64,000 bases of DNA from Escherichia coli (GTDB lineage Bacteria > Pseudomonadota > Gammaproteobacteria > Enterobacterales > Enterobacteriaceae), in assembly GCF_013315695.1 (NCBI RefSeq), contig NZ_CP054353.1; one strand, given 5' to 3'. This document shows positions 16,072-57,233 of the stretch, one piece after another. Position 1 is the stretch's first letter, and every line of letters starts with the position of its first letter. A model generated the notes under the pieces. That model was given only the letters and a program-made list of their open reading frames with translations, did not search any database and was not told where the DNA came from. The translations under genes and the position numbers were made by a program.

Positions 16072-16191
16072 ATGCCTGGCAGTTCCCTACTCTCGCATGG
16101 GGAGACCCCACACTACCATCGGCGCTACGGCGTTTCACTTCTGAGTTCGGCATGGGGTCAGGTGGGACCACCGCGCTAAGGCCGCCAGGCA
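16072..16191 (-). rRNA. rrfG: 5S ribosomal RNA
   Basis: 120-nt match (reverse complement) to E. coli 5S rRNA; tgcctggcggcc...gggaactgccaggcat. Confidence 0.95.
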
Positions 16192-16285
16192 AATTCTGTT
16201 TATCAGACCACTTCTGCGTTCTGATTTAATCTGTTATCAAGCTTACTTATCGATGTCTCTTCCGCCAAAACATCTTCGGCGTTGT

Positions 16286-19189
<2,904 letters not shown>

Positions 19190-19383
19190 TCACAACCCGA
19201 AGATGTTTCTTTCGACTCATCATCGTGTTGCGAAAATTTGAGAGACTCACGAACAACTTTCGTTGTTCAGTGTTTCAATTTTCAGCTTGATCCAGATTTT
19301 TAAAGAGCAAATATCTTAAACATGACTCGTAAGTCATCTTTAACGATATTAAGGTCGGTGACTTTCACTCACAAACCAGCAAG

Positions 19384-19459
19384 TGGCGTCCCCTAGGGGA
19401 TTCGAACCCCTGTTACCGCCGTGAAAGGGCGGTGTCCTGGGCCTCTAGACGAAGGGGAC
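19384..19459 (-). tRNA. gltW: tRNA-Glu (anticodon UUC) in 16S-23S spacer
   Basis: Reverse complement matches GTCCCCTTCGTCTAGAGGCCCAGGACACCGCCCTTTCACGGCGGTAACAGGGGTTCGAATCCCCTAGGGGACGCCA. Confidence 0.95.
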
Positions 19460-19544
19460 GTATCAGTCTGCTTCGCAAGACGCCTTGCTTTTCACTTTCT
19501 ATCAGACAATCTGTGTGAGCACTTCAAAGTACGCTTCTTTAAGG

Positions 19545-21086
<1,542 letters not shown>

Positions 21087-24103: not shown

Positions 24104-24139
24104 AACTCCTCCCATAACGGATCAAAGTTGCTACTGGAG

Positions 24140-24172
24140 ATTAAATGAGGTCATCCCTCAATTATTCAAGGT
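24140..24172 (-). promoter_or_regulatory. Putative sigma-32 heat-shock promoter of clpB
   Basis: Minus-strand CTTGAAT -N14- CCTCATTTA resembling sigma-32 consensus CTTGAAA-N13-15-CCCCATNT. Confidence 0.55.
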
Positions 24173-24232
24173 TATTGACCAGATTAATGTGAAAAGAAAA
24201 TCACGCGTACCGGATCGTCTTGATTCTTTAGG

Positions 24233-29474: not shown

Positions 29475-30146
29475 ATGCAGTACCCGATTAACGAGATGTT
29501 CCAGACCCTGCAAGGTGAGGGTTACTTTACCGGCGTCCCCGCCATTTTTATTCGTTTACAGGGATGTCCGGTCGGCTGTGCCTGGTGCGACACCAAACAC
29601 ACCTGGGAAAAGCTTGAGGATCGGGAAGTCTCCCTTTTCAGCATTCTGGCGAAGACCAAAGAGAGTGATAAGTGGGGGGCGGCGAGCAGTGAAGATTTGC
29701 TGGCTGTCATTGGTCGTCAGGGATACACCGCGCGGCATGTGGTGATTACGGGTGGTGAGCCTTGCATTCATGATTTGCTGCCACTGACTGACCTGCTCGA
29801 AAAGAACGGTTTTAGCTGCCAGATAGAAACCAGCGGCACTCACGAAGTACGTTGCACACCGAATACCTGGGTTACTGTTTCGCCAAAACTGAACATGCGC
29901 GGCGGCTATGAAGTGTTGTCACAGGCACTGGAGCGCGCTAACGAAATTAAACATCCTGTTGGGCGTGTTCGTGACATCGAAGCGCTGGATGAGCTATTAG
30001 CAACGCTGACCGATGATAAACCACGAGTCATTGCACTGCAGCCGATTAGCCAAAAGGATGATGCCACTCGTTTGTGCATTGAAACCTGCATTGCGCGTAA
30101 CTGGCGTTTGTCGATGCAAACACATAAATATCTAAATATTGCCTGA
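29475..30146 (+). CDS. queE: 7-carboxy-7-deazaguanine synthase (radical SAM, queuosine biosynthesis)
   Basis: 223 aa; radical-SAM Cys motif CPVGCAWCDT; matches remembered YgcF/QueE. Confidence 0.95.
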   Translation: MQYPINEMFQTLQGEGYFTGVPAIFIRLQGCPVGCAWCDTKHTWEKLEDREVSLFSILAKTKESDKWGAASSEDLLAVIGRQGYTARHVVITGGEPCIHDLLPLTDLLEKNGFSCQIETSGTHEVRCTPNTWVTVSPKLNMRGGYEVLSQALERANEIKHPVGRVRDIEALDELLATLTDDKPRVIALQPISQKDDATRLCIETCIARNWRLSMQTHKYLNIA

Positions 30147-30485
30147 TTAAACATTTATAAGCGTTATAAATGGGTGGAACCTGTAAAGACTTCTACTCAT
30201 TTATATTGTTTGTCGCCTCTGAAAACTCATCCATCTTGCCCATCCTGAACTAATCATTATCATTCTCTACAAATTCTGTGGCGTTAATTTTTCGCTGGAG
30301 TGAAAATTATTGCGGTAAAGTTTGGTAGATTTTAGTTTGTATAGAGTTATTTTAAATATTTACCTTTTTAATCAATGGATTAAGTGCTCTTTAACATAAT
30401 GGATGTGTTGTTTGTGTGATACTGTAAAGTTGGTAGATTGTGACTGGCTTAAAAAATCATTAATTAATAATAGGTTATGTTTAGA
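30147..30485 (+). promoter_or_regulatory. CRISPR leader (A/T-rich) of distal array
   Basis: A/T-rich 340 bp ending in motif agttggtagattgt shared with the cas-adjacent leader; immediately precedes first repeat. Confidence 0.6.
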
Positions 30486-31307
30486 GTGTTCCCCGCGCCA
30501 GCGGGGATAAACCAAATACAGGACCAATATTTTGATATATATAATCGTGTTCCCCGCGCCAGCGGGGATAAACCGGTGATTCTGGCAATACTGGCACTTC
30601 CGTTTTGGTGTTCCCCGCGCCAGCGGGGATAAACCGGGCGGTTAACTGGTCCTGTGCGGATATGCGCTGTGTTCCCCGCGCCAGCGGGGATAAACCGATG
30701 TGGAAAGGCGAGCTGAGGGTGGCCTACGCGTGTTCCCCGCGCCAGCGGGGATAAACCGGCTGAGGAAATTGCTAAACCCTCGCAGGATCCGTGTTCCCCG
30801 CGCCAGCGGGGATAAACCGTTGCCGGTACAGCTCCAGCATTAATCCCCACCGTGTTCCCCGCGCCAGCGGGGATAAACCGTTGCGACGTGGTGCGCGCTC
30901 GAGCACAACGTTGTGTTCCCCGCGCCAGCGGGGATAAACCGATGTAAACCCCTCGCGCATCGAGTCAAATGTCGTGTTCCCCGCGCCAGCGGGGATAAAC
31001 CGCCACCTCAGCCTGCGCGCCCGCTGAATATTCCGTGTTCCCCGCTCCAGCGGGGATAAACCGGGACGCGTTCCATCAGGGCGGGTCCAGGGAATGTGTT
31101 CCCCGCGCCAGCGGGGATAAACCGCAGGCGGCGCAGTGGCGCATGAATCCGTTCGCGTGTTCCCCGCGCCAGCGGGGATAAACCGGAGTTTGTGAATTTA
31201 ACAGAATTCCGCGCCCGGTGTTCCCCGCGCCAGCGGGGATAAACCAGCCAATTGCCATATATGCCATCGCCAGCAGCCGTGTTCCCCGCGCCAGCGGGGA
31301 TAAACCA
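30486..31307 (+). CRISPR. Type I-E CRISPR array, 14 repeats / 13 spacers (distal array between queE and ygcE)
   Basis: 29-bp repeat GTGTTCCCCGCGCCAGCGGGGATAAACCG at exact 61-bp period from 30486 to 31279; 32-bp unique spacers; repeat 10 has GCTCC variant; repeats 1, 13, 14 end in A. Confidence 0.97.
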
Positions 31308-31394
31308 CCATATAACCCGTTATCTCTTTCTCAAGTTTTTATATTAGCTGTACTTGTAATAAGCAACATATCCACATAACACCTCATGTTCAAA

Positions 31395-31425
31395 ATAGTT
31401 CCCCATGCCAGATAAGTTCACAATT
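31395..31425 (+). repeat. Degenerate fossil CRISPR repeat
   Basis: atagttccccatgccagataag resembles repeat with internal deletion, about two periods beyond last intact repeat. Confidence 0.4.
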
Positions 31426-31760
31426 ATCGATACAAAAAATCAAATTTAATCAAAGTGTTATTTGTATAATCCTTAAACCGTTAAGAAATTTTAATATATT
31501 ATTTTTTTAATATTAATTAATGCCTGTTAATTTTTTCTTTAGAATAACAGTGTATTTTTTAAGCTTGTTATTCATTGATTAAGTAATAAATCTGGAAGTT
31601 TGTCTTTGTTTTGAGGCTAATGAGTGGTTTTACATAACCGCCTCTATACGCTGTTGATGAATAGTTCTTATGAATAAAGATATCCAGTTCATACTTTAAG
31701 TGAAAATTGATAAAGTGCGATTCGTATTGTCTTTTATTCTAAAGACATCGAGTGTAGTTA

Positions 31761-31898
31761 ATATTCCTTGTAAAAACAGGGATAAACCGAACTAGTTAAA
31801 GTTTTTATTATGTTCCCTGCATCAGCGGGGATAAACCGGACTTGTTATCATTTTTTAAGTTGTCGAACTTATGTTCCCCGCGTCAGCGGGGATAACCA
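31761..31898 (+). CRISPR. Degenerate CRISPR mini-array (3 decayed repeats)
   Basis: atattccttgtaaaaacagggataaaccg / atgttccctgcatcagcggggataaaccg / atgttccccgcgtcagcggggataacc; last two 61 bp apart; abuts ygcE 3' end. Confidence 0.7.
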
Positions 31899-31944
31899 TT
31901 CAGGTATGTTCAGGCCGGGCAGTTTCCCGCCCGGCCTTCCTCAC

Positions 31945-33423
31945 TTACGCATTCGACCAGCTCTGGATCGAATCCGCATTCCCCAATTCCCCATGCATCA
32001 CTTCATACGATTTTTTCAGTATCACATCAGTGTGTTTGGTTAGGTCTTTGAAAATGCCTTTATTCATCGCGTCGTAGCGTTTGGCGTTGCTCTCAACAGG
32101 CATAAAGATATCTTTCACGCGAACCATTTTGTCGACAGCCGTTGCGTAATCCGGATACAGACCAAGCCCTACCGCCGTATTAATCGCCGCCCCCAGACTT
32201 GCACAACCATTAATGGCGTTACGGCGTGCCGGAAGGTTGAACACGTCGGCAAAAATCTGCATAAACAGATCGCTGTTCGAACCGCCGCCAGTAATGATCA
32301 CATGCTTTGCAAAGTGATTCATTTCATTACACATATTGTCGTAATTGTTCTTCAGCGTCAGCGCCACGCTTTCCAGTATCGAACGATATATCCATGCGTA
32401 ATCCATGCTGGAATCAAAGCCGATCATAATCCCGCGTTTGTATGGTTCCCACGGATTGGTCAGCCAGTCCAGCACCGTCATCAGACCATTACAGCCAGGT
32501 GGCACACAAGACGCTTTTTTGTTGAGCAAATCTTCCGGTGAAAGATCCTGTGCTTTGGCATCCTGAATTAACGACTCGCCTAGCATGTCGCGTAGCCAGC
32601 TCACCGTCCACATGCCTTTGCGAATACCGTAACCTTCATACAGCAAGGTTTGCGGAATAGAAGACATAATCGGCCAGTACGCTACCGGATCTTTCGGCAG
32701 TGCTTTACCGTTCATCATCAGCGCGATGTAGGTGCCAAGAGAAATCACCGCCGTTTCATCATCCAGTAATCCGGCTCCCAGAGCTTCTACCGGTTTATCA
32801 CTGGTGGTACAAACAACCGGCAGCCCAGCTGGGAAATGTGTCGCCAGCGCGGCTTGAGGAGTGATATGCCCAAGAACAGTGCCCGGCATTTGCACATCAA
32901 ACAGCATATGACGGGGGATATTAAACTTCTCCATGACTGCGGCATCTTCACTCCATGCCCAGCTCTTATAATCCACCGGCCACTGACCAAAATAGTTGGC
33001 GATATTGTCTTTAAACTCGCCGGTTAAGCGATGCGTCAGATAACCCGAAAAAGAGGTGACATATGCCACGTCAGGATTCGTATGTTCGTAAGGGCGTGTA
33101 ACGCGTGCATCCTGCCAGCTAATCAACGGCGCAGCTGGCGTGCCATCGGCTTTCAATAACGCACGGCAGCAACGGATGGATCCCAGACCAATACCGACAA
33201 TATCTTCTTTATTTCCGGCAAACTGACTCATCAAATCGTGACCGGCAAAACATAATGATGCCCATAAATCGTCGTCAGGATGTTCTGCGGTATCGGCATC
33301 TGGCGTGTGCATCGGCTGCAATAAGCCTTTGCCTTCGCAAACCACATTACCTTCCAGATCATACATCACCACTTTTGTGCTCTGACTTCCGCCATCAATC
33401 CCTATGATGTATTTTTTCGACAT
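31945..33423 (-). CDS. ygcE: FGGY-family carbohydrate kinase
   Basis: 492-aa ORF with FGGY kinase N- and C-terminal motifs (IGIDGGSQSTK...). Confidence 0.9.
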   Translation of the reverse strand: MSKKYIIGIDGGSQSTKVVMYDLEGNVVCEGKGLLQPMHTPDADTAEHPDDDLWASLCFAGHDLMSQFAGNKEDIVGIGLGSIRCCRALLKADGTPAAPLISWQDARVTRPYEHTNPDVAYVTSFSGYLTHRLTGEFKDNIANYFGQWPVDYKSWAWSEDAAVMEKFNIPRHMLFDVQMPGTVLGHITPQAALATHFPAGLPVVCTTSDKPVEALGAGLLDDETAVISLGTYIALMMNGKALPKDPVAYWPIMSSIPQTLLYEGYGIRKGMWTVSWLRDMLGESLIQDAKAQDLSPEDLLNKKASCVPPGCNGLMTVLDWLTNPWEPYKRGIMIGFDSSMDYAWIYRSILESVALTLKNNYDNMCNEMNHFAKHVIITGGGSNSDLFMQIFADVFNLPARRNAINGCASLGAAINTAVGLGLYPDYATAVDKMVRVKDIFMPVESNAKRYDAMNKGIFKDLTKHTDVILKKSYEVMHGELGNADSIQSWSNA

Positions 33424-37356: not shown

Positions 37357-37449
37357 TGTGTGAGGCAGCGTTCCGCGATGACGGGGCGTTGCCTTTTCGG
37401 CTTCTCAGGCGAGAAGCCGTTCTTATTACCGGACAATGAAGGGGTAAAG

Positions 37450-38787
37450 ATGAACACTTCACCGGTGCGAATGGATGATTTACCGCTTAACCGTTTTCAC
37501 TGTCGAATTGCTGCGCTCACTTTCGGCGCGCACCTGACCGACGGTTATGTTCTCGGCGTCATTGGTTACGCCATTATTCAGCTTACGCCCGCCATGCAAC
37601 TGACGCCGTTAATGGCGGGAATGATCGGCGGCTCGGCGCTCCTTGGTTTGTTTCTTGGCAGCCTGGTTCTTGGGTGGATCTCCGACCATATTGGTCGGCA
37701 AAAAATCTTCACCTTCAGCTTTTTGCTGATTACGCTCGCTTCGCTCTTGCAATTTTTTGCCACCACGCCAGAGCATCTTATTGGATTGCGCATTTTGATC
37801 GGCATTGGTCTGGGAGGCGATTACTCAGTCGGTCACACCTTGCTGGCTGAATTTTCCCCGCGCCGCCATCGCGGTATTTTGCTGGGCGCATTCAGTGTGG
37901 TGTGGACCGTAGGCTATGTGCTGGCAAGTATTGCCGGACATCACTTTATTACCGAAAGCCCGGAGGCCTGGCGCTGGCTGCTGGCATCAGCGGCGTTACC
38001 AGCCTTGCTGATTACGCTGCTACGTTGGGGCACGCCGGAATCGCCACGCTGGCTACTGCGCCAGGGGCGTTTTGCAGAAGCTCACGCTATCGTTCATCGC
38101 TATTTTGGCCCGCATGTTTTACTGGGCGATGAAGTGGCAACGGCGACCCATAAACACATCAAAACCTTGTTCTCTTCGCGCTACTGGCGGCGCACAGCGT
38201 TTAACAGCGTCTTCTTTGTCTGCCTCGTAATCCCATGGTTTGTGATTTATACCTGGCTGCCAACTATCGCCCAGACTATTGGACTGGAAGATGCGCTGAC
38301 TGCCAGCCTGATGCTTAATGCGTTGTTAATTGTTGGCGCGCTGCTGGGATTAGTTCTGACGCACCTGCTGGCACATCGCAAGTTTTTGCTGGGAAGTTTT
38401 TTGTTGCTGGCGGCAACGCTGGTAGTGATGGCCTGTTTGCCTTCCGGCAGTTCATTAACGCTGCTGCTTTTTGTTCTCTTCAGCACCACCATTTCGGCAG
38501 TCAGTAATCTGGTGGGCATTTTGCCTGCGGAAAGTTTTCCTACTGACATTCGCTCGCTGGGCGTCGGTTTTGCCACCGCCATGAGTCGGTTGGGGGCGGC
38601 GGTAAGTACTGGCCTGCTGCCGTGGGTGCTGGCGCAGTGGGGAATGCAAGCCACCTTATTGCTCCTGGCGGCAGTGTTGTTGGTTGGTTTTGTTGTGACC
38701 TGGCTATGGGCACCAGAAACCAAAGCACTCCCGCTGGTGGCGGCGGGAAATGTAGGAGGTGCGAATGAACATTCTGTTAGCGTTTAA
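37450..38787 (+). CDS. ygcS: MFS transporter
   Basis: ORF-track call trimmed to MNTSPVRMDD (445 aa); 12-TM MFS. Confidence 0.85.
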   Translation: MNTSPVRMDDLPLNRFHCRIAALTFGAHLTDGYVLGVIGYAIIQLTPAMQLTPLMAGMIGGSALLGLFLGSLVLGWISDHIGRQKIFTFSFLLITLASLLQFFATTPEHLIGLRILIGIGLGGDYSVGHTLLAEFSPRRHRGILLGAFSVVWTVGYVLASIAGHHFITESPEAWRWLLASAALPALLITLLRWGTPESPRWLLRQGRFAEAHAIVHRYFGPHVLLGDEVATATHKHIKTLFSSRYWRRTAFNSVFFVCLVIPWFVIYTWLPTIAQTIGLEDALTASLMLNALLIVGALLGLVLTHLLAHRKFLLGSFLLLAATLVVMACLPSGSSLTLLLFVLFSTTISAVSNLVGILPAESFPTDIRSLGVGFATAMSRLGAAVSTGLLPWVLAQWGMQATLLLLAAVLLVGFVVTWLWAPETKALPLVAAGNVGGANEHSVSV

Positions 38788-47796: not shown

Positions 47797-47906
47797 GCGA
47801 GCAGCATTCCTGATTTTAAACGTGAACGTCGTTGGAAGAATTAACAGGTATAGAATGGCGTTGGGTGCTTGAGGCTGTCTGGCGTTAAGCATTCGCGAGG
47901 TTCCAG

Positions 47907-48008
47907 ATGGACAAAAGCCCCAGGCGATATTTCTATCAACCTGAGGCCAGCGTTCGAACCCAAACAATTCGAATGTTAGTCTCTTCTTTGCAGGGAGGCA
48001 AGACATGC
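47907..48008 (+). CDS. mok-like leader ORF translationally coupled to hok-like toxin
   Basis: 33-codon ORF ([34 protein letters not shown]) whose stop overlaps the toxin start (ATGcTGA). Confidence 0.4.
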
Positions 48009-48157
48009 TGACAAAATATGCCCTTGTGGCAATCATAGTGCTGTGTTTTACAGTACTGGGATTCACGCTGATGGTAGGCGACTCGTTGTGTGAGTTGAGT
48101 ATCAGAGAACGTGGTATGGAGTTTAAGGCGGTTCTCGCTTACGAATCGAAGAAGTAG
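48005..48157 (+). CDS. Hok/Gef-family type I toxin (50 aa)
   Basis: [50 protein letters not shown]; single TM helix then conserved SLCE...AYES periplasmic motif; RBS agggagg 7 nt upstream; below 60-aa cutoff of ORF track. Confidence 0.8.
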
Positions 48158-48351: not shown

Positions 48352-51051
48352 ATGCGTAAATATCCTTTAAGTTTACTGAAGGATAAAAATATTGTGACTT
48401 TTTTTGATTTCTGGGGAAAAACCCGACGCGGCGAGAAAGACGGGGGCGACGACTATCACCTTCTTTGCTGGCATTCGCTGGATGTAGCCGCGATGGGCTA
48501 TTTAATGGTTAAAAGCAATTGCTTCGGACTGGCTGACTATTTTCGTCAATTAGGTTTCGCTGACACGGAGCTGGCAGCACAATTTTTCGCCTGGCTGCTG
48601 TGCTGGCACGATATTGGAAAATTTGCCCGCTCTTTTCAGCAACTTTACCTGCACCCACAACTCAAGGTTCCGGAAGGCGCAAGAAAGAATTACGAAAAGA
48701 TCTCTCATTCAACGCTGGGCTACTGGTTGTGGAACCATTATTTAAGTGAATGTCAGGAGTTGCTTCCTTCATCTTCACTCTCTCCGCGCAAACTTAAACG
48801 GGTGATGGAGATGTGGATGCCCATGACTACCGGGCATCATGGTCGACCCCCTGAGCGTATGGATGAACTGGATAATTTTCTGCCTGAAGACAAAGGTGCC
48901 GCACGAGATTTTCTCCTTGCAATCAAGGTACTGTTTCCGCTCATAGAGATCCCCACATTCTGGGATGATGACGAGGGCGTTGAACTTATAAAACAACTTT
49001 CCTGGTATATCTCTGCAACCGTCGTACTTGCAGACTGGACGGGATCGTCAACGCGATATTTTCCACGCGTCGCACAGACAATGGATATTGAAGATTACTG
49101 GCAGAAAACTTTAGTTCAGGCTCAAAACGCCTTAACCGTCTTTCCTCCAAAAGCAGAAAGCGCGCCTTTCACCGGAATTAATACGCTGTTTCCTTTTATT
49201 GAGAATCCGACACCGCTACAGCAAAAGGTGCTGGATCTGGATATCAGCCAGCCGGGACCACAGTTATTTATTCTGGAGGATGTAACCGGCGCAGGTAAAA
49301 CAGAAGCGGCGCTTATCCTGGCGCACAGGTTGATGGCTGCGGGGAAAGCGCAGGGTTTGTTTTTTGGCCTGCCAACAATGGCAACGGCCAATGCCATGTA
49401 CGATCGACTGGTCAAAACCTGGCTTGCTTTCTATTCGCCAGAGTCCCGCCCCAGCCTGGTGCTGGCACACAGTGCCCGAACATTAATGGACCGCTTTAAT
49501 GAATCACTCTGGTCCGGTGATTTAGTCGGGTCAGAAGAACCGGATGAACAAACGTTCAGTCAGGGATGTGCGGCCTGGTTTGCCGACAGTAACAAGAAGG
49601 CGCTACTGGCTGAAATTGGCGTCGGCACGCTGGATCAGGCGATGATGGCTGTGATGCCGTTCAAACATAATAATCTGCGGCTTCTGGGACTGAGTAACAA
49701 AATCCTGCTGGCTGATGAGATCCATGCCTGTGACGCTTACATGTCATGCATTCTTGAAGGGCTGATCGAGCGGCAGGCGCGTGGCGGAAACAGCGTCATT
49801 TTGCTTTCTGCCACGTTATCTCAACAGCAGCGCGACAAACTCGTTGCTGCCTTTGCGCGTGGTATAGAGGGCCAGCAAGAAGCTCCGTTCCTGGAAAAGG
49901 ATGATTACCCCTGGCTGACGCACGTTACGAAATCCGATGTGCATTCACACCGGGTAGCGACGCGCAAAGACGTTGAGCGCAGCGTGAGTGTGGGTTGGCT
50001 TCATAGCGAACAAGAGTGTATTGCGCGTATCGAATCGGCGGTAAGTCAGGGGAAATGTATCGCCTGGATCCGAAATTCTGTCGATGACGCCATCCAGGTT
50101 CATCGTCAGTTACTTGCCCGCGGCGTCATTCCTGCTTCCAGCCTTTCACTTTTTCATAGCCGCTTTGCTTTTAGCGATCGCCAGCGAATTGAAACGGAGA
50201 CGCTGGCACGCTTTGGTAAAGAAGACTGTTCACAGCGTGCCGGAAAAGTCCTCATTTGTACTCAAGTCCTGGAGCAGAGCGTTGACTGCGACCTGGACGA
50301 AATGATTTCCGACCTTGCCCCTGTTGATTTACTGATCCAGCGAGCAGGGCGATTACAGCGACATATCCGCGATATGAATGGCCAGTTAAAGCGTGACGGT
50401 AAAGACGAGCGTCACCCTCCTGAATTGCTGATTCTGGCCCCCGTCTGGGACGACTCTCCGGGTGACGAATGGTTTGGCAGTGCCATGCGTAACAGTGCAT
50501 TTGTCTATCCCGATCATGGGCGAATCTGGCTGACGCAGCGTGTGCTGCGTGAGCAAGGTGCTATTCAGATGCCACACTCAGCCCGGCTTCTGATTGAATC
50601 AGTCTACGGTGAGGACGTAGTAATGCCGGAAGGGTTTGCCCGCAGCGAGCAGGAGCAAGTGGGCAAATATTACTGCGATCGCGCAATGGCTAAAAAGTTT
50701 GTACTGAACTTCAGGCCCGGCTATGCCGCCAATATCAACGATTACCTCCCGGAAAAACTGTCGACACGTCTGGCTGAAGAGTCTGTTTCCCTGTGGCTGG
50801 CTACCTGTATTGACGGTGTGGTGAAGCCTTATGCCACAGGTGCACACGCATGGGAAATGAGCGTTGTCAGAGTGCGCCGAAGCTGGTGGAAAAAACATCG
50901 GGATGAGTTTGCTTTACTGGAAGGGGATGCGTTCAGGCAGTGGTGCGTTGAACAGCGGCATGATCCGGAGATGGCAAACGTGATTTTAGTCACCGATGAC
51001 GAAAGTTGTGGGTATTCGGCTACGGAGGGATTGATTGGCAAGGTTGGTTGA
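48352..51051 (+). CDS. cas3: Cas3 HD-nuclease/helicase (type I signature protein)
   Basis: 899-aa ORF; HD motif LCWHDIGKF; helicase motif I TGAGKTEA, motif II DEIHA; position upstream of cse1; start codon uncertain. Confidence 0.9.
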   Translation: MRKYPLSLLKDKNIVTFFDFWGKTRRGEKDGGDDYHLLCWHSLDVAAMGYLMVKSNCFGLADYFRQLGFADTELAAQFFAWLLCWHDIGKFARSFQQLYLHPQLKVPEGARKNYEKISHSTLGYWLWNHYLSECQELLPSSSLSPRKLKRVMEMWMPMTTGHHGRPPERMDELDNFLPEDKGAARDFLLAIKVLFPLIEIPTFWDDDEGVELIKQLSWYISATVVLADWTGSSTRYFPRVAQTMDIEDYWQKTLVQAQNALTVFPPKAESAPFTGINTLFPFIENPTPLQQKVLDLDISQPGPQLFILEDVTGAGKTEAALILAHRLMAAGKAQGLFFGLPTMATANAMYDRLVKTWLAFYSPESRPSLVLAHSARTLMDRFNESLWSGDLVGSEEPDEQTFSQGCAAWFADSNKKALLAEIGVGTLDQAMMAVMPFKHNNLRLLGLSNKILLADEIHACDAYMSCILEGLIERQARGGNSVILLSATLSQQQRDKLVAAFARGIEGQQEAPFLEKDDYPWLTHVTKSDVHSHRVATRKDVERSVSVGWLHSEQECIARIESAVSQGKCIAWIRNSVDDAIQVHRQLLARGVIPASSLSLFHSRFAFSDRQRIETETLARFGKEDCSQRAGKVLICTQVLEQSVDCDLDEMISDLAPVDLLIQRAGRLQRHIRDMNGQLKRDGKDERHPPELLILAPVWDDSPGDEWFGSAMRNSAFVYPDHGRIWLTQRVLREQGAIQMPHSARLLIESVYGEDVVMPEGFARSEQEQVGKYYCDRAMAKKFVLNFRPGYAANINDYLPEKLSTRLAEESVSLWLATCIDGVVKPYATGAHAWEMSVVRVRRSWWKKHRDEFALLEGDAFRQWCVEQRHDPEMANVILVTDDESCGYSATEGLIGKVG

Positions 51052-51140
51052 GATGTCTGCGACAGGATTCTCTGAATAGTTGATACACAAAAAAGGATGG
51101 ACAACCGACCAGGGATGGTCTTTTTTACGAGAGGATGCGT

Positions 51141-52703
51141 ATGAACTCGTTTTCACTTCTGACAACCCCGTGGTTGCCTGTTCGTTTCAAAGACGGAACG
51201 ACAGGCAAGCTGGCATCAGTCGATCTGGCTGATGAGAATGTTGTCGATATCGCCGCACCGCGAGCAGATTTACAAGGTGCGGCCTGGCAGTTTTTGCTGG
51301 GACTACTACAAACCAGCTTCGCGCCAAAAGATCATCGTCGTTGGGATGATATCTGGGAAGACGGACTGGAAGCTGAAAAGCTACGAGAAGCATTGCTGTC
51401 TTTAGAACATGCTTTCCAGTTTGGGCCTGATTCATCTTCATTTATGCAGGATTTTGAGGCGCTCACGGGAGATAAAGTTCCGGTCGCTTCGCTACTGCCT
51501 GAGATTCCCGGCTCTCAAACGACGAAGTTTAATAAAGACCATTTTATCAAGCGGGGTGTAACGGAATATCTGTGCCCCCATTGCTTAGCATTGGCCTTGT
51601 TCTCTTTACAGTTGAATGCACCCGCGGGCGGCAAAGGCTATCGCACCGGTTTACGCGGCGGTGGGCCGATGACGACTCTCATTGAATTACAGGAATATCA
51701 GGGCAATCAACAAACACCCTTGTGGCGCAAACTGTGGCTCAACGTGATGCCGCAGGATGAAGCCGACTTACCGCTACCCAAAAAATTTGACGATCTGATT
51801 TTCCCCTGGCTAGGCCCGACGCGTACCAGCGAACTGGCCGGTGCGGTGGTAACCCATGATCAGGTCAATAAACTCCAGGCGTACTGGGGAATGCCGCGGC
51901 GTATACGTATTGATTTTAATACCACGACAGTCGGCAACTGCGATATTTGCGACGAGCAGAACGACGCGCTCCTGAGCCTGATGACGACCAAAAATTATGG
52001 TGCCAATTATGCCATGTGGCAGCATCCCTTAACGCCTTACCGTGTACCACTTAAAGAGGGTGGCGAGTTTTACTCCGTTAAACCACAACCGGGCGGTTTA
52101 ATCTGGCGCGACTGGTTAGGCCTTATCGAAACGGGTAAATCAGAAAACAATACGGAACTTCCCGCGCTGGTGGTGAAACTCTTTAATGCCAGCAGTCTGA
52201 AACAGGCAAAAGTGGGCCTATGGGGATTTGGTTATGATTTTGACAACATGAAAGCGCGCTGTTGGTACGAACACCATTTCCCGCTACTGCTCAATAAAAA
52301 AGAAGGCCAGATACCGAAGCTGCGGCTGGCTGCGCAAACGGCTTCACGGATTCTGAGTCTGTTACGGAGTGCATTGAAAGAAGCATGGTTCTCCGATCCA
52401 AAAGGTGCAAGGGGTGATTTCAGTTTTGTGGATATCGACTTCTGGAACAAAACTCAGCATCGCTTCCTGAGGTTAGTGCGCCAAATTGAAGAAGGTCAGG
52501 ATGCGGATGAATTACTCGGCAAATGGCAAAAGGAAATTTGGTTATTCGCGCGTCAGGATTTTGACGAGCGTGTATTCACTAATCCTTATGAGCCCGTTGA
52601 TTTGAAACGCGTCATGACCGCGCGCAAGAAATATTTTACAACATCGGCGGAGAAGCAAAGTGCTAAAGCCGCCAGGGAGAAAAAGCAGGAGGCTGCTGAA
52701 TGA
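51141..52703 (+). CDS. casA: Cascade large subunit Cse1 (CasA)
   Basis: About 520 aa; first gene of Cascade operon after cas3; RBS gagagga before ATG 51141 (alternative ATG 51135). Confidence 0.85.
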   Translation: MNSFSLLTTPWLPVRFKDGTTGKLASVDLADENVVDIAAPRADLQGAAWQFLLGLLQTSFAPKDHRRWDDIWEDGLEAEKLREALLSLEHAFQFGPDSSSFMQDFEALTGDKVPVASLLPEIPGSQTTKFNKDHFIKRGVTEYLCPHCLALALFSLQLNAPAGGKGYRTGLRGGGPMTTLIELQEYQGNQQTPLWRKLWLNVMPQDEADLPLPKKFDDLIFPWLGPTRTSELAGAVVTHDQVNKLQAYWGMPRRIRIDFNTTTVGNCDICDEQNDALLSLMTTKNYGANYAMWQHPLTPYRVPLKEGGEFYSVKPQPGGLIWRDWLGLIETGKSENNTELPALVVKLFNASSLKQAKVGLWGFGYDFDNMKARCWYEHHFPLLLNKKEGQIPKLRLAAQTASRILSLLRSALKEAWFSDPKGARGDFSFVDIDFWNKTQHRFLRLVRQIEEGQDADELLGKWQKEIWLFARQDFDERVFTNPYEPVDLKRVMTARKKYFTTSAEKQSAKAAREKKQEAAE

Positions 52704-53236
52704 GTATTGTAAAAGAGGAGCACAAAGCCACGCTGCGTAAATGGCACGAAGAGTTGCAGGAAAAACGCGGCAATCGTGCCAGTCTGCGGCGTAGCACAAC
52801 GGTTAATGATGTTTGTCTGTCAGAAGGTTTTCGTTCTCTGCTGATGCAGACCCACACGTTGTGGAAAATTGAATCACAGGAGTGGCGTTTTACCGCACTG
52901 GCGCTGGTTGCCGCCGTTGCCGCCAATGTAAAAGCCATTGATGAACGGCAGCCTTTTGCCGCGCAGTTGGCGGCGGTAATGTCTGAGGGGCGTTTTACTC
53001 GCCTGTCGGCAGTCAAAACGCCGGATGAATTACTGCGCCAGTTACGTCGCGCGGTCAAATTATTAAATGGTTCCGTCAATCTTATCTCTTTGGCAGACGA
53101 TATTTTCCGCTGGTGCCAGGAGAGTGACGACCTGCTCAATCATCACCGCCGCCAGCAGCGGCCAACAGAATTTATCCGTATCCGCTGGGCGCTGGAATAT
53201 TACCAGGCTGGCGACGCCGATAACGAACAAAATTAA
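52700..53236 (+). CDS. casB: Cascade small subunit Cse2 (CasB)
   Basis: 178 aa; ATGA overlap with casA stop; position between cse1 and cas7e. Confidence 0.8.
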   Translation: MSIVKEEHKATLRKWHEELQEKRGNRASLRRSTTVNDVCLSEGFRSLLMQTHTLWKIESQEWRFTALALVAAVAANVKAIDERQPFAAQLAAVMSEGRFTRLSAVKTPDELLRQLRRAVKLLNGSVNLISLADDIFRWCQESDDLLNHHRRQQRPTEFIRIRWALEYYQAGDADNEQN

Positions 53237-53250
53237 TAAAGGACTATCTC

Positions 53251-54306
53251 ATGACGACATTTATTCAGCTTCATTTGTTAACCGCTTACCCTGCTGCCAA
53301 CCTTAACCGTGATGACACCGGTGCGCCAAAAACTGTGGTACTGGGTGGAGCAACGCGTCTGCGCGTTTCCTCGCAAAGTCTGAAACGTGCGTGGCGCACT
53401 TCTGCACTTTTTGAACAGGCGCTGGCGGGCCATATTGGTATTCGTAGTGGGCGTATCGCGCGCGAGGCAGCAACTATCATGATTGAGAAAGGAATCGAAG
53501 AAAAAAAAGCCATCGAATGGGCGGCAGATATTGCCGATTATCTTGGTAAAGCCAAAAAAGACAAAAAACCAAAAGATCCGCTCACTAACGCTGAAACTGA
53601 ACAGCTCGTCCATATCAGCCCGGCAGAATTTGACGCCGTAAAAGCGCTGGCCCATCAACTGGCAGAAGAAAAGCGCGCGCCAAAAGAGGACGATCTCGCT
53701 TTGTTACGTAAAGATCGTATGGCGGTAGATATCGCCATGTTTGGTCGTATGCTGGCGAATAAACCCGAGTTTAATGTTGAAGCCGCCTGTCAGGTCGCGC
53801 ACGCGTTTGGTGTCAGTGAAACGATTGTCGAAGATGATTTTTTCACCGCCGTTGATGATTTGCGCCAGGCCTCTGAAGATGCTGGTGCAGGGCATCTTGG
53901 TGAAACTGGATTTGGTTCTGCGCTGTTCTACACCTATATCTGCATTGATAAAGATCTGCTGGTCGAAAACCTCGGCGGTGACGAAGCATTAGCTAATCAG
54001 ACCCTGCGCGCCTTTACGGAAGCAGCGTTTAAAGTTTCCCCAACCGGTAAACAAAACAGCTTTGCCAGCCGTGCCTACGCCTCCTGGGCGCTGGCAGAAA
54101 AAGGCACCGAACAACCGCGTTCTCTGGCGGCGGCTTTCTATGAACCCATTAATGGCACACGTCAGTTAGATGTGGCGGTGCAGCGTATTACAACGCTTCG
54201 CGAAAACATGAATACGGTTTACGAACAGAAGACCGAATGCGCAAGTTTTGACGTGATGAACAAACAGGGAAGCATGAAGGACGTGCTGGACTTTATCTGC
54301 GCGTAA
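53251..54306 (+). CDS. casC: Cascade backbone subunit Cas7e (CasC)
   Basis: 351 aa; N-terminus MTTFIQLHLLTAYPAANLNRDDTGAPK typical of Cas7e. Confidence 0.9.
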   Translation: MTTFIQLHLLTAYPAANLNRDDTGAPKTVVLGGATRLRVSSQSLKRAWRTSALFEQALAGHIGIRSGRIAREAATIMIEKGIEEKKAIEWAADIADYLGKAKKDKKPKDPLTNAETEQLVHISPAEFDAVKALAHQLAEEKRAPKEDDLALLRKDRMAVDIAMFGRMLANKPEFNVEAACQVAHAFGVSETIVEDDFFTAVDDLRQASEDAGAGHLGETGFGSALFYTYICIDKDLLVENLGGDEALANQTLRAFTEAAFKVSPTGKQNSFASRAYASWALAEKGTEQPRSLAAAFYEPINGTRQLDVAVQRITTLRENMNTVYEQKTECASFDVMNKQGSMKDVLDFICA

Positions 54307-54316
54307 GGGGCGGCTT

Positions 54317-55063
54317 ATGAGCCAATATCTGATTTTTCAGCTTCATGGGCCAATGGCATCCTGGGGCGTTGATGCACCCGGTGAGGTGCGTCATACCCAT
54401 GAACTGCCTTCGCGTTCAGCATTGCTGGGGCTGCTGGCTGCCGGGGTAGGGATACGGCGTGATGACACCGAATGCTTAAACGCGTTTAATCGCCACTATT
54501 CACTGGTGGTTTGCGCCAGCCGTAACCCGCGCTGGGCACGGGATTATCACACGGTCCAGATGCCAAAAGAGGTGCGTAAAGCGCGTTATTTCAGCCGTCG
54601 CGAAGAGTTGAGCGACCCTGATCTTCTAAGCGCGATTATCTCCCGGCGCGACTACTACACCGATGCCTGGTGGATGGTGGCCGTGGCAACAACAGCTGAT
54701 GCGCCTTACAGCCTCGAACAGTTGCAGGAAGGTTTACGCCATCCGGCTTTTCCGCTTTATCTGGGGCGAAAAAGCCATCCGCTGGCATTACCCCTTGCGC
54801 CGTTACTGCTTGAAGGTAACGCGTCTGATGCCTTACGTAACGCATACCAACAGTATCAGGATCGTTTCCACGAACTGAAAGTCTCACTCCCGAAACTTCA
54901 GGATGAATGCTGGTGGGAAGGGGAGCACGATGGCCTGGTCTCGAGCAAAATATTACGCCGCCGGGATGTTCCTTTAAATCGTCAGCAGTGGCTGTTTGGG
55001 GAACGCACCGTCAATCAGGGGCCGTGGCTCAGCAAGGAGGAACCATGTACCTCTCAAGAATAA
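54317..55063 (+). CDS. casD: Cascade subunit Cas5e (CasD)
   Basis: 248 aa; N-terminus MSQYLIFQLHGPMASWG...LLGLLAAGVGIRRDD typical of Cas5e. Confidence 0.9.
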   Translation: MSQYLIFQLHGPMASWGVDAPGEVRHTHELPSRSALLGLLAAGVGIRRDDTECLNAFNRHYSLVVCASRNPRWARDYHTVQMPKEVRKARYFSRREELSDPDLLSAIISRRDYYTDAWWMVAVATTADAPYSLEQLQEGLRHPAFPLYLGRKSHPLALPLAPLLLEGNASDALRNAYQQYQDRFHELKVSLPKLQDECWWEGEHDGLVSSKILRRRDVPLNRQQWLFGERTVNQGPWLSKEEPCTSQE

Positions 55064-55691
55064 CCTTACATACCGGTCAGCTTTCGCCTGCGCAGTTGCT
55101 GCATTTGGTGGATCGCGGTGAATATGTGATGCATCAGTGGCTGTGGGATCTTTTTCCTGGCGGCAAAGAAAGGCAATTTCTTTATCGTCGGGAAGAACTC
55201 CAGGGCGCGTTTCGCTTTTTTGTCCTGTCGCAGGAACGCCCGGCGGAAAGTGAAACGTTCACCATCGAATGCCGGTCATTTGCGCCTGAACTGCATACCG
55301 GACAATCCCTTTGTTTCAACCTGCGGGCGAATCCAACAGTCTGTAAAGCGGGTAAGCGCCACGATCTGCTGATGGAGGCGAAACGGCAGGTGAGGGGGCA
55401 GGCGGAAGGAAGAAATGTCTGGTTGCATCAACAACAGGCGGCGCTGGACTGGCTGGCAGCGCAGGGGGAGAGAAGCGGTTTTACACTGCTGGATACCTCG
55501 GTCGATGCCTACCGACAACAGCAACTGCGGCGGGAAAACTCCCGGCAACTGATCCAGTTCAGTAGCGTGGATTATACGGGGATGCTTACGGTCACCGATC
55601 CTGGGTTATTTCTGCAACGTCTGAGCCAGGGGTATGGCAAAAGCCGGGCGTTCGGTTGTGGTCTGATGCTGATCAAACCTGGAGCAGAGGC

Positions 55692-55695
<4 letters not shown>
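55045..55695 (+). CDS. casE: crRNA endoribonuclease Cas6e (CasE)
   Basis: 216 aa from MYLSRITLHTGQ after AGGAGG RBS; C-terminal Gly-rich loop GYGKSRAFGCGLM; overlaps casD 3' end. Confidence 0.85.
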
Positions 55696-56905
<1,210 letters not shown>

Positions 56906-57001: not shown

Positions 57002-57212
57002 GTGTTCCCCGCGCCAGCGGGGATAAACCGGCTGGGTACTAGCCAGGGTGAAAGGAAGTCACGTGTTCCCCGCGCCAGCGGGGATAAACCGTCGACAATG
57101 GATAAGTTGACTTCAGGTCTGGGGAGTTCCCCGCGCTAGCGGGAATAAACCGTGCAGTACGCCTGATGACAAACCAGGCATCGGGAGTTCCCCCGCGTCA
57201 GCGGGGAACTCC
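57002..57212 (+). CRISPR. Type I-E CRISPR array adjacent to cas2, 4 repeats / 3 spacers
   Basis: Repeats at 57002, 57063, 57124, 57185 (61-bp period); repeats 3 and 4 degenerate; spacers gctgggtactagccagggtgaaaggaagtcac, tcgacaatggataagttgacttcaggtctggg, tgcagtacgcctgatgacaaaccaggcatcgg. Confidence 0.9.
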
Positions 57213-57233
57213 CAGCTCCCATTTTCAAACCCA

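What the first reader, a model, noticed from the sequence alone, without database searches (positions are those of the whole stretch)
31308..31898. Fossil repeats and a 3-repeat mini-array downstream of the main array
Beyond the last intact repeat there is a decayed repeat at about 31395-31425, then about 340 bp of A/T-rich leader-like DNA, then three degenerate repeats (31761-31898) abutting the ygcE 3' end. This suggests two ancestral arrays, one now reduced to remnants. The ORF track reports small ORFs here that are read-through of repeat sequence.
Basis: seen in the sequence. Interest (0 to 1): 0.3.

Follow-up and report, generated by a model that had tools for sequence, protein, structure and literature searches.

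The report
Known E. coli CRISPR2.2 relic mini-array

Summary
The window holds the E. coli queE(ygcF)–ygcE "CRISPR-II" locus. It has leader2.3 (30147-30485) and a 14-repeat CRISPR2.3 array (30486-31307). Then follow 336 bp at 25% G+C and three degenerate type I-E repeats: R1 31761-89, R2 31810-38 and R3 31871-99. The mini-array lies 45 bp from the ygcE stop codon.

[quoted passage not shown] It is present in about 4,100 of 5,426 complete E. coli genomes and is more than 99% identical in 3,868 of them.

New detail from comparison:
- R3 is the same degenerate terminal repeat that ends the single short arrays of E. albertii, E. whittamii and phylogroup-B2-type E. coli (S88, CFT073, Nissle 1917).
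- Variants lacking S1+R2 or R2+S2 exist.
- A divergent allele preserves F1 much better than the window does.

The A/T-rich stretch shows no leader homology, no promoter-like site, no periodicity and no phage or plasmid homologue. Whether there were once two arrays or one interrupted array stays unresolved. R1-R3 all keep the Cas6e hairpin, so processing of the S2 unit is possible but untested.

Verdict: already known, low interest.

The parts
30147..30485 (+). leader2.3, the A/T-rich leader of the main CRISPR-II array (context)
   Evidence: 30.4% G+C. It runs from the queE stop to the first repeat. The same sequence precedes the short arrays of E. albertii, E. whittamii, S88 and CUWW06.
30486..31307 (+). 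CRISPR2.3 array: 14 type I-E repeats and 13 spacers with a 61-nt period (context)
   Evidence: Annotated as CRISPR in near-identical genomes.
31308..31339 (+). 32-nt spacer-length segment between the last intact repeat and fossil F1
   Evidence: Conserved flank in all E. coli alleles (100% identical to K-12, 75% to E69).
31340..31368 (+). fossil repeat F1, unrecognisable in the window on its own
   Evidence: The orthologous position in the divergent E69 allele reads GTTCCCTGTATCAGCAATAAA. That is 14/15 identical to the 5' part of R2, with score P<0.001, and it lies 33 nt after the last intact repeat. It does not fold.
   Evidence: The core 31398-31411, GTTCCCCATGCCAG, is 12/14 with P=0.001. 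The G-run of the 3' stem arm is missing and there is no hairpin.
31425..31760 (+). 336-bp A/T-rich non-coding stretch of unknown origin
   Evidence: 25.3% G+C. No repeat-like signal, no 40-80 nt periodicity and no tandem repeats. No significant leader similarity and no + strand promoter-like site. No phage or plasmid homologue. Conserved in about 4,150 E. coli genomes. 70-88% identical in sub-blocks to the E69 allele.
31761..31789 (+). R1, first and most degenerate repeat of CRISPR2.2
   Evidence: 19/29 to the consensus and 22/29 to R2. The canonical 7-bp/4-nt hairpin is kept at -7.9 kcal/mol through C9:G18>U:A, C11:G16>U:A and C8>U. Identical in all alleles, including E69.
31790..31809 (+). 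S1, a short (20 nt) fixed spacer at 15% G+C
   Evidence: Absent in E69, where S1+R2 are deleted.
31810..31838 (+). R2, second repeat of CRISPR2.2
   Evidence: 25/29. Hairpin at -12.1 kcal/mol. Absent, together with S2, in O145 RM8988.
31839..31870 (+). S2, a 32-nt fixed spacer at 28% G+C
   Evidence: No protospacer in the phage or plasmid collections: the only full matches are E. coli chromosomes filed as plasmids. 30/32 identical in E69.
31871..31899 (+). R3, degenerate terminal repeat of the whole CRISPR-II locus
   Evidence: 24/29, with a degenerate 3' end GATAACCAT. Hairpin at -15.1 kcal/mol. The same repeat plus the same downstream flank ends the arrays of E. albertii, E. whittamii, S88 and CUWW06. 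R3 plus the terminator region is present in 4,521 of 5,426 genomes.
31900..31944 (.). 45-bp gap holding a G+C-rich inverted repeat (31913-31936) between R3 and the ygcE stop
   Evidence: Read directly from the sequence. 64% G+C. Not called by the simple terminator scan, which requires a T run.
31945..33423 (-). ygcE (FGGY-family sugar kinase), the convergent neighbour
48352..56905 (+). type I-E cas operon (cas3, casA-E, cas1, cas2), supplying Cas6e/Cascade in trans
   Evidence: The window is 99.9% identical to annotated strain MS 21-1 over this range. Coordinates were transferred from that annotation.
57002..57214 (+). CRISPR2.1 array: 3 repeats plus a degenerate terminal repeat at 57186-57214

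Best explanation
The interval is the promoter-distal (trailer) end of the E. coli type I-E CRISPR-II locus between queE/ygcF and ygcE, and it has already been described.

The three degenerate repeats with two fixed spacers are the published CRISPR2.2 array. The roughly 0.45 kb before it is the conserved non-coding stretch that separates it from the active CRISPR2.3 array. The first 117 bp of that stretch are two decayed repeat units (F1, F2).

R3 is the ancestral terminal repeat of the locus. It is the one unit that survives in every lineage that still has anything of the array.

The mini-array is a frozen relic, not an independently adapting array. Its spacers do not turn over. Its first repeat is its most decayed one. 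No leader features can be shown next to it.

Variation at the locus is generated by recombination between repeats. This removes internal units, giving R1-S2-R3, R1-S1-R3, array-R3 or leader-R3 forms. The divergent end repeats are left behind. This fits the published idea that degenerate terminal repeats act as recombination-resistant 'anchors' (PMC3903273).

Shown here: anatomy, identity with CRISPR2.2, population frequency, orthology of R3 across species, the deletion variants, and hairpin retention.

Inferred: that deletions rather than insertions explain the variants, that the relic is selectively near-neutral, and that the S2 unit could be cut out by Cas6e if read-through transcription from the CRISPR2.3 leader reaches it. 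The S2 unit has the 5' handle AUAAACCG from R2 and an intact R3 hairpin. I put production of an S2 crRNA at some level at about 0.3.
For: - Locus identity: flanked by queE and ygcE, with the array annotated as CRISPR in near-identical genomes.
[quoted passage not shown] CRISPR2.2 and CRISPR2.3 are 'separated by 0.5 kb', and leaders lie only next to 2.1 and 2.3 (PMC3903273; PMC3737337). [quoted passage not shown]
- Repeat matches are above chance.
- Frequency and invariance: the 591-bp interval is in 4,176 of 5,426 genomes, and 4,126 of them hold at least 80% of it. The mini-array is at least 99% identical in 3,868 of 4,156.
- R3 plus its downstream flank is the terminal repeat in E. albertii, E. 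whittamii, S88 and CUWW06.
- Deletion variants: E69 lacks S1+R2 and O145 RM8988 lacks R2+S2.
- Fossils F1 and F2.
- No leader evidence.
- All three repeats fold into the canonical hairpin.
- A complete cas I-E operon lies in the same window.
Against: - The relic may not be neutral. Against the divergent E69 allele, the mini-array differs at 3/90 sites, while the adjacent flanks differ at 24/165 (Fisher P=0.005).
- R1 keeps its hairpin through paired changes (P 0.005-0.03 under mixed substitution models, but 0.15 if only transitions are allowed).
- The direction of change, deletion or insertion of the 0.45 kb, is not established. The outgroups that lack it have only 0-2 spacers. The B2-type spacer was found in 231 genomes; in the 40 rows listed, no PGAP CRISPR annotation lay under it.
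- No expression data were available.
Confidence: 0.85

Rival explanations
1. Two originally independent arrays. Array A (now CRISPR2.3) ended in its own decaying terminal repeats F1 and F2. The 336-bp A/T-rich stretch is the dead leader of array B, of which only R1-S1-R2-S2-R3 remain. Single-array strains arose by recombination between an array-A repeat and R2 or R3.
For: - F1 and F2 are decayed repeats exactly where an array end would be.
- The stretch is A/T-rich (25% G+C against 30% for leader2.3), directly upstream of R1 in the transcribed orientation, and about the same length as leader2.3 (336 against 339 bp).
- The two accepted leaders 2.1 and 2.3 are themselves barely similar (z about 3), so absence of similarity is weak evidence.
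- The stretch is old: it is present, 62-88% identical by sub-block, in the E69 lineage.
- One IHF consensus match lies at 31448, as in each true leader.
Against: - No significant similarity to either leader (z 2.7 and -1.2).
- No + strand promoter-like site.
- The IHF-like site is 313 nt from R1, against 105-116 nt in the true leaders.
- R1, which would be the leader-proximal repeat, is the most decayed one.
- No genome seen has a longer second array.
- The literature assigns no leader to CRISPR2.2.
Confidence: 0.35
2. One ancestral array (leader2.3 ... R3) that was interrupted by insertion of about 0.35-0.45 kb of foreign A/T-rich DNA. The units cut off from the leader (R1-S1-R2-S2-R3) froze, and the units next to the insertion decayed.
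For: - R3 is the terminal repeat of uninterrupted arrays in E. albertii, E. whittamii and B2-type E. coli, which carry leader2.3 but no 0.45 kb.
- 25% G+C is far below what decay of 55-66% G+C spacers and repeats would give.
- Touchon & Rocha treat it as a conserved non-coding sequence inside CRISPR2.
- IS1 insertions into this same interval occur in present-day strains (rows H15 and H23).
Against: - No homologue of the stretch in phages or plasmids, elsewhere in the window, or in the other fetched Enterobacteriaceae loci.
- I saw no terminal inverted repeats or target duplication at its ends when reading the sequence.
- All genomes lacking it have tiny arrays that could be deletion products.
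- It is old, being present in the divergent E69 allele.
Confidence: 0.35
3. The whole 0.45 kb is a run of about 7 repeat-spacer units decayed beyond recognition, so the locus is one continuous array with a rotted middle.
For: - F2 to R1 is 365 bp, which is 6 x 61 - 1.
- F1 to F2 is 56 bp, which fits 61 minus the roughly 5-nt deletion in the fossil.
- A TAAACCG 7-mer ends at 31480, the register predicted for a next unit.
Against: - No autocorrelation at any lag from 40 to 80 (best z 2.2, against a 95% null of about 3.0).
- TRF finds nothing.
- The TAAACCG hit is not significant (P=0.3).
- 25% G+C cannot be reached by neutral decay while F2 still keeps 12/14 of its core.
Confidence: 0.05
4. The mini-array is kept by selection for a function of its own. 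Possibilities are a conserved crRNA from S2 (or the short S1), a cluster of hairpins that ends or stabilises the convergent pre-crRNA and ygcE transcripts, or a recombination 'anchor' that helps re-acquisition of CRISPR-Cas modules.
For: - Three of three repeats keep the Cas6e-type hairpin. R1 does so through two double changes.
- The mini-array is much more conserved than its flanks against the E69 allele (P=0.005) and than the terminator among seven E. coli alleles (P=0.0002).
- The anchor idea is published for CRISPR2.1.
- Touchon & Rocha remarked on unexplained retention of old spacers.
Against: - Within E. coli proper, the low-diversity block also covers the adjacent 140 bp of A/T-rich DNA (5/140 against 3/139 variable columns, P=0.72; population figures). 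The signal is therefore not specific to the mini-array and could reflect recombination history.
- All stem changes in R1 are transitions (P=0.15 under that model).
- Viable natural deletions of S1+R2 and of R2+S2 exist, and about 1,250 genomes lack the mini-array.
- No target was found for S2.
Confidence: 0.12

Closest known systems
E. coli CRISPR2.2 array of the CRISPR-II (ygcE-ygcF) locus (Díez-Villaseñor et al. 2010, as cited in PMC3903273, PMC3737337 and PMC4489801)
   Same: Same genomic position, same orientation, three type-2 (I-E) repeats, two invariable spacers, and 0.5 kb from CRISPR2.3. This is that element.
   Different: Nothing essential. The accessible papers do not mention the 20-nt length of S1, the two fossil repeats F1 and F2, or the one-spacer variants seen here. 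The original 2010 paper could not be read.
'Large (~0.5 kb) non-coding sequence' inside CRISPR2 (Touchon & Rocha 2010, PMC2886076)
   Same: The same 0.45-kb conserved stretch, read there as an interruption of one array.
   Different: That paper gives no origin for it. Here its first 117 bp are shown to be decayed repeat units and the remaining 336 bp to have no detectable homologue.
Degenerate terminal 'anchor' repeat of E. coli CRISPR2.1 (Almendros et al. 2014, PMC3903273)
   Same: R3 is a 3'-degenerate last repeat retained across lineages whatever the array content. It carries the same T13 variant (GCGTCAG) as the terminal repeat of CRISPR2.1 in this window (57186-57214).
   Different: The anchor idea was put forward for the iap-proximal end of CRISPR2.1. 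Its extension to the CRISPR-II locus is my inference.
CRISPR leaders 2.1 and 2.3 of E. coli type I-E
   Same: A/T-rich, a few hundred bp long, and directly upstream of a first repeat in the transcribed orientation.
   Different: No significant sequence similarity, no promoter-like site, no IHF consensus near the repeat, and no spacer acquisition at the adjoining repeat.

Membership tests
Type I-E CRISPR array (E. coli CRISPR2.2) | Two or more direct repeats matching the 29-nt type-2/I-E consensus, above chance | tested here: met
   R2 25/29, R3 24/29, R1 19/29. The chance maximum is 18-19 in 64 kb. R2 and R3 fall in the same repeat family as the main array.
Type I-E CRISPR array (E. coli CRISPR2.2) | Regular 61-nt period (29-nt repeat plus 32-nt spacer) | tested here: inconclusive
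   R2 to R3 is 61 nt, with a 32-nt S2. R1 to R2 is 49 nt, with a 20-nt S1.
Type I-E CRISPR array (E. coli CRISPR2.2) | Repeat forms the 7-bp stem / 4-nt loop hairpin recognised by Cas6e | tested here: met
   R1, R2 and R3 all give the identical dot-bracket structure, at -7.9, -12.1 and -15.1 kcal/mol. Binding by Cas6e itself was not tested.
Type I-E CRISPR array (E. coli CRISPR2.2) | Published position and composition: ygcE side of the ygcE-ygcF region, 0.5 kb from CRISPR2.3, 3 repeats, 2 invariable spacers | tested here: met
Type I-E CRISPR array (E. coli CRISPR2.2) | Cognate cas genes in the genome | tested here: met
   cas3-cas2 lie at about 48352-56905, by 99.9% identity to the annotated strain MS 21-1.
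Type I-E CRISPR array (E. coli CRISPR2.2) | Active array: spacer content differs between strains through leader-end acquisition | tested here: not met
   The mini-array is at least 99% identical in 3,868 of 4,156 genomes. The only variants seen are losses of one unit.
Type I-E CRISPR array (E. coli CRISPR2.2) | Transcribed and processed into crRNA | not testable with these tools
   No expression data. No paper found in the library reports it.
CRISPR leader (for 31425-31760) | A/T-rich and immediately upstream of the first repeat on the transcribed strand | tested here: met
   25.3% G+C, and it abuts R1.
CRISPR leader (for 31425-31760) | Sequence similarity to known I-E leaders of the same genome | tested here: not met
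   Local-alignment z is 2.7 against leader2.3 and -1.2 against leader2.1, both within the shuffle range. The two true leaders give z of about 3 against each other.
CRISPR leader (for 31425-31760) | Promoter reading into the array | tested here: not met
   No + strand sigma-70-like site in 31308-31760. The total count for the region is at shuffle level. This is a consensus scan only.
CRISPR leader (for 31425-31760) | IHF site close to the first repeat | tested here: not met
   The only WATCAANNNNTTR match is at 31448, 313 nt upstream of R1. The true leaders have theirs 105-116 nt upstream.
Degenerate terminal ('anchor') repeat (for R3) | Last repeat of the locus, degenerate at its 3' end, retained across lineages whatever the spacer content | tested here: met
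   The same repeat and downstream flank are present in E. albertii, E. whittamii, S88, CUWW06, E69, K-12, O145 and O157. It is found in 4,521 of 5,426 genomes.
Degenerate terminal ('anchor') repeat (for R3) | Protects the locus from complete loss by repeat-repeat recombination | not testable with these tools
   A published hypothesis only.

The most novel reading that the evidence does not exclude
CRISPR2.2 is not a neutral fossil but a selectively maintained element. Its three repeats have kept the Cas6e hairpin (R1 through compensatory changes), and it is far more conserved than its flanks in the one deep comparison available. It might therefore yield a fixed, species-wide crRNA (S2, or the 20-nt S1, which is 12 nt shorter than a standard spacer) with a non-immune role. 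Alternatively it might act as a hairpin cluster that defines the 3' ends of the convergent pre-crRNA and ygcE transcripts.
Probability: 0.1. Interest if true: 0.45.

Novelty: already known. Interest (0 to 1): 0.1.

Why it matters
It matters little beyond correct annotation. The element is a described feature of the best-studied CRISPR locus. Automatic annotation (PGAP) leaves it unmarked, and ORF callers can produce spurious ORFs starting at the ATG of R2 and R3.

The small additions here give a cleaner picture of how the trailer end of an array ages and is trimmed by repeat-repeat recombination. These are two fossil repeats, R3 as the locus-wide terminal repeat shared with E. albertii and E. 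whittamii, the one-unit deletion variants, and hairpin retention in R1.

If the weak conservation signal were real selection, it would point to a non-immune role for a fixed crRNA or hairpin cluster. The present evidence does not require that.

Tried and rejected
1. Whole 0.45 kb as a decayed array. Rejected: no periodicity, TRF finds nothing, no further repeat-like hits, and 25% G+C.

2. 'Split repeat' idea, in which the 5' half of F2 and the 3' half of R1 are one repeat cut by a 365-bp insertion. Rejected because the 5' half of R1 shares the derived bases of R2 (A1, T9, A12; 22/29 identity), and R1 folds as a complete repeat.

3. S1 as a decayed duplicate of S2, suggested by family D2. Not supported: alignment score P=0.12 against shuffles, and equal scores occur against random 32-mers of the A/T-rich stretch.

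4. Leader homology. Not significant.

5. Rfam. No family match in 29800-32400 even at E<=1.

6. Protospacer for S2. Only chance-level hits and E. coli chromosomes misfiled as plasmids.

7. Mobile-element or phage origin of the A/T-rich stretch. No hits, and none in the 80 fetched ygcE loci from other genera.

8. Strain HH45, which seemed to hold a variant with only R3. Its array region decays into junk sequence, which is an assembly or polishing artefact.

9. Testing whether the B2-type single-array form is a deletion product, by looking for its spacer inside long arrays. The spacer occurs in 231 genomes; in the 40 rows listed, no PGAP CRISPR annotation lay under it, so the test is uninformative.

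10. Mini-array-specific conservation within E. coli proper. Not specific, because the adjacent 140 bp is equally invariant.

11. The original description (Díez-Villaseñor 2010) is not in the library.
Full report
**What is there**

[quoted passage not shown] The finding lies between queE (ygcF; 29475-30146, +) and ygcE (31945-33423, -). The 591 bp of the finding are 100% identical to strain MS 21-1. They occur in 4,176 of 5,426 complete E. coli genomes, and 4,126 of these hold at least 80% of the interval, always once and always on the chromosome.

On the + strand the order is as follows:

| Coordinates | Element | Notes |
|---|---|---|
| 30147-30485 | leader2.3 | 30% G+C |
| 30486-31307 | CRISPR2.3 array | 14 repeats, 61-nt period |
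| 31308-31899 | the finding | described below |
| 31900-31944 | 45-bp G+C-rich inverted repeat | sits between R3 and the ygcE stop |
| 31945-33423 | ygcE | - strand |

The + strand is the crRNA sense, because the leader is on the left and the repeat reads GTGTTCCCCGCGCCAGCGGGGATAAACCG. A complete cas3-cas2 operon (about 48352-56905) and the short CRISPR2.1 array (57002-57214) lie in the same window.

**Checking the observation**

The three repeats match the array consensus as follows:

| Repeat | Coordinates | Match to consensus |
|---|---|---|
| R1 | 31761-31789 | 19/29 |
| R2 | 31810-31838 | 25/29 |
| R3 | 31871-31899 | 24/29 |

Outside CRISPR repeats, the best + strand scores in 64 kb are one 19 and one 18. 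R2 and R3 are therefore far above chance. R1 is borderline by score alone. It is secured by its perfect 3' 11-mer GGGATAAACCG, its position, its 22/29 identity to R2 and its fold. Spacer S1 is only 20 nt and S2 is 32 nt.

Its 5' half GTTCCCCATGCCAG is 12/14. A local-alignment score that high is reached by 1 in 1000 simulated sequences of the same composition.

The stretch 31425-31760 is 336 bp at 25.3% G+C.

The small + strand ORFs start at the ATG formed by the first bases of R2 and R3, or cover R1. They are not annotated in any RefSeq genome inspected.

**What it is called**

This is a described structure.
- Almendros et al. state that the CRISPR-II locus holds either one array (CRISPR2.2-3) or two (CRISPR2.2 and CRISPR2.3, "separated by 0.5 kb"), and that leaders lie next to CRISPR2.1 and CRISPR2.3 (PMC3903273; also PMC3737337).

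The novelty class is therefore 'already known'.

**Comparative anatomy**

I fetched ygcE loci from one genome per species and read the DNA downstream of ygcE.
- E. albertii has leader2.3, three repeats and two spacers. Its last repeat, ...GCGTCAGCGGGGATAACCATT, and the following flank are the same as R3 and its flank in the window. There is no 0.45-kb stretch.
- E. whittamii has leader2.3 joined directly to that one repeat.
- Within E. coli, S88 (a B2-type form also found in CFT073 and Nissle 1917) has leader2.3-repeat-spacer-R3. CUWW06 has leader2.3-R3.

R3 plus the terminator region is in 4,521 genomes, against 4,176 with the 0.45 kb and 5,372 with ygcE. R3 is thus the terminal repeat of the whole locus, not of a private second array.

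Citrobacter, Enterobacter and the other genera fetched have no repeats next to ygcE. The exception is Klebsiella spallanzanii, whose 22-repeat array lies about 3.3 kb away.

One-unit variants exist:
- The record titled E. coli E69 has R1-S2-R3. Its ygcE DNA is 93% identical to the window's.
- O145 RM8988 has R1-S1-R3.

Both are what recombination between neighbouring repeats would produce.

**A second fossil**

The E69 allele of the 0.45 kb is only 62-88% identical to the window in sub-blocks. No close relative of it exists among the 5,426 complete genomes.

Thirty-three nucleotides after its last intact repeat it reads GTTCCCTGTATCAGCAATAAA. That is 14/15 identical to the 5' part of R2 (score P<0.001). 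The orthologous window segment, 31340-31368, has decayed beyond recognition.

So the first 117 bp after the main array are spacer, F1, spacer, F2. Each lineage preserves a different fossil better. Neither fossil folds, and both have lost part of the G run.

**Is the A/T-rich stretch a leader, an insertion, or rotted array?**

Rotted array is unlikely:
- No periodicity at lags 40-80.
- No TRF hit.
- No further repeat-like segment. TAAACCG at 31474-31480 is in register but has P=0.3.
- A G+C content of 25% is not where 55-66% G+C DNA would drift while F2 is still recognisable.

Leader is plausible only by composition, position and length:
- Similarity to leader2.3 and leader2.1 is within the shuffle range. 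The two true leaders are hardly more similar to each other, so this is weak evidence either way.
- There is no + strand promoter-like site.
- The single IHF-consensus match (31448) is 313 nt from R1.

Insertion has no positive evidence either. There is no homologue in phages, plasmids, the window or other fetched loci.

The stretch is old, since it is shared with the E69 lineage. All genomes lacking it have 0-2 spacers and could be deletion products. I could not prove that: the B2-type spacer occurs in 231 genomes, and in the 40 rows listed no PGAP CRISPR annotation lay under it. I leave the two origins at roughly equal weight.

**Could it still work?**

R1, R2 and R3 all fold into the same 7-bp stem and 4-nt loop as the consensus repeat. 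R1 does so despite ten substitutions, through C9:G18>U:A, C11:G16>U:A and C8>U.

Random placement of ten substitutions keeps all seven pairs with probability 0.005-0.03 under mixed models. The figure is 0.15 if only transitions are allowed, and all five stem changes are transitions. This is suggestive, not decisive. Hairpin-templated (quasipalindrome) mutation is an alternative to selection; that point rests on established knowledge.

The S2 unit has an intact 5' handle (last 8 nt of R2) and an intact R3 hairpin. It could be cut by Cas6e if transcription from the CRISPR2.3 leader reads through. This is inference only. S2 has no match in the phage or plasmid collections.

**Conservation**

Variable columns among seven E. 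coli alleles:

| Segment | Variable columns |
|---|---|
| 31308-31620 | 12-16% across three sub-blocks |
| 31621-31760 | 3.6% |
| mini-array | 2.2% |
| terminator | 20% |
| ygcE 3' end | 8-12% |

Share of genomes at least 99% identical to the window:

| Segment | Genomes |
|---|---|
| mini-array | 3,868 of 4,156 |
| adjacent 139 bp | 3,705 of 4,150 |
| ygcE 3' end | 13 of 5,368 |

The low-diversity block is wider than the mini-array, and the window's ygcE allele is rare. This points to recombination history as much as to constraint.

Only the E69 comparison singles out the mini-array: 3/90 differences against 24/165 in the flanks (P=0.005). I record this as the basis of the 'novel case' at low probability.

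**Verdict**

The element is the known CRISPR2.2 relic with its 0.5-kb separator. Interest is low.

Noticed in passing
window 31340-31368: A second fossil repeat (F1), one spacer length after the last intact CRISPR2.3 repeat. It is recognisable only because the divergent allele in 'E. coli E69' (L008) preserves it as GTTCCCTGTATCAGCAATAAA.
   Followed up: yes
window 30486-31307 versus L001 2935-4000: The window's CRISPR2.3 array has 13 spacers and that of the otherwise 99.9-100% identical strain MS 21-1 has 17. They share 7 spacers in the same order, and each has private internal spacers. This is a mosaic consistent with internal deletions from a larger ancestral array.
   Followed up: partly
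window 31621-31899 and 31945-32083: A low-diversity block covers the mini-array plus the adjacent 140 bp of A/T-rich DNA. The window's ygcE 3' end is a rare allele, at least 99% identical in only 13 of 5,368 genomes. This suggests a recombination breakpoint near the ygcE terminator.
   Followed up: partly
window 30370, 31448, 56897: Each of leader2.3, the 0.45-kb stretch and leader2.1 has exactly one + strand match to the IHF consensus WATCAANNNNTTR, all with the core AATCAA....TTA. In the two true leaders it lies 116 and 105 nt upstream of the first repeat. No functional meaning was tested.
   Followed up: no
window 57002-57214: CRISPR2.1 has only three repeats plus a degenerate terminal repeat (57186-57214, 19/29). 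That terminal repeat carries the same GCGTCAG (T13) variant as R3.
   Followed up: partly
window 37434-37452 versus L006 5836-6603: MS 21-1 carries an IS1 between ygcU and ygcS that is absent from the window. Separate IS1 insertions inside the 591-bp finding interval occur in other strains (rows H15 and H23).
   Followed up: no
window 16074-21086 and 24084-24222: A complete rRNA operon (5S, 23S, tRNA, 16S on the - strand) and the RyfD sRNA lie only about 6-14 kb upstream of queE. MS 21-1 has an IS4 transposase next to ygcG where K-12-type strains have eno. From my recollection of the K-12 map, this is not the K-12 gene order, which would suggest an IS-associated rearrangement.
   Followed up: no
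window 47863-48020: A sok antitoxin RNA (Rfam RF01794, 111 bits) lies next to a Hok/Gef family gene, between cysH and cas3.
   Followed up: no
L004 2310-2990 (E. coli HH45, NZ_CP116411.1): The CRISPR-II array of this 'complete' assembly degrades progressively into purine-rich junk before resuming at R3. This is almost certainly a long-read assembly or polishing artefact, not biology.
   Followed up: partly
L036 (Klebsiella spallanzanii), about 3.3-4.7 kb from the ygcE 3' end: A 22-repeat array with the same I-E repeat consensus and the same orientation lies about 3.3 kb from ygcE in this species. Citrobacter, Enterobacter and the other genera fetched have none. The intervening DNA was not examined.
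   Followed up: no
window 30515-30546: The leader-proximal spacer of the main array is unusually A/T-rich (22% G+C, AATACAGGACCAATATTTTGATATATATAATC), against a mean of 55% for the array.
   Followed up: no
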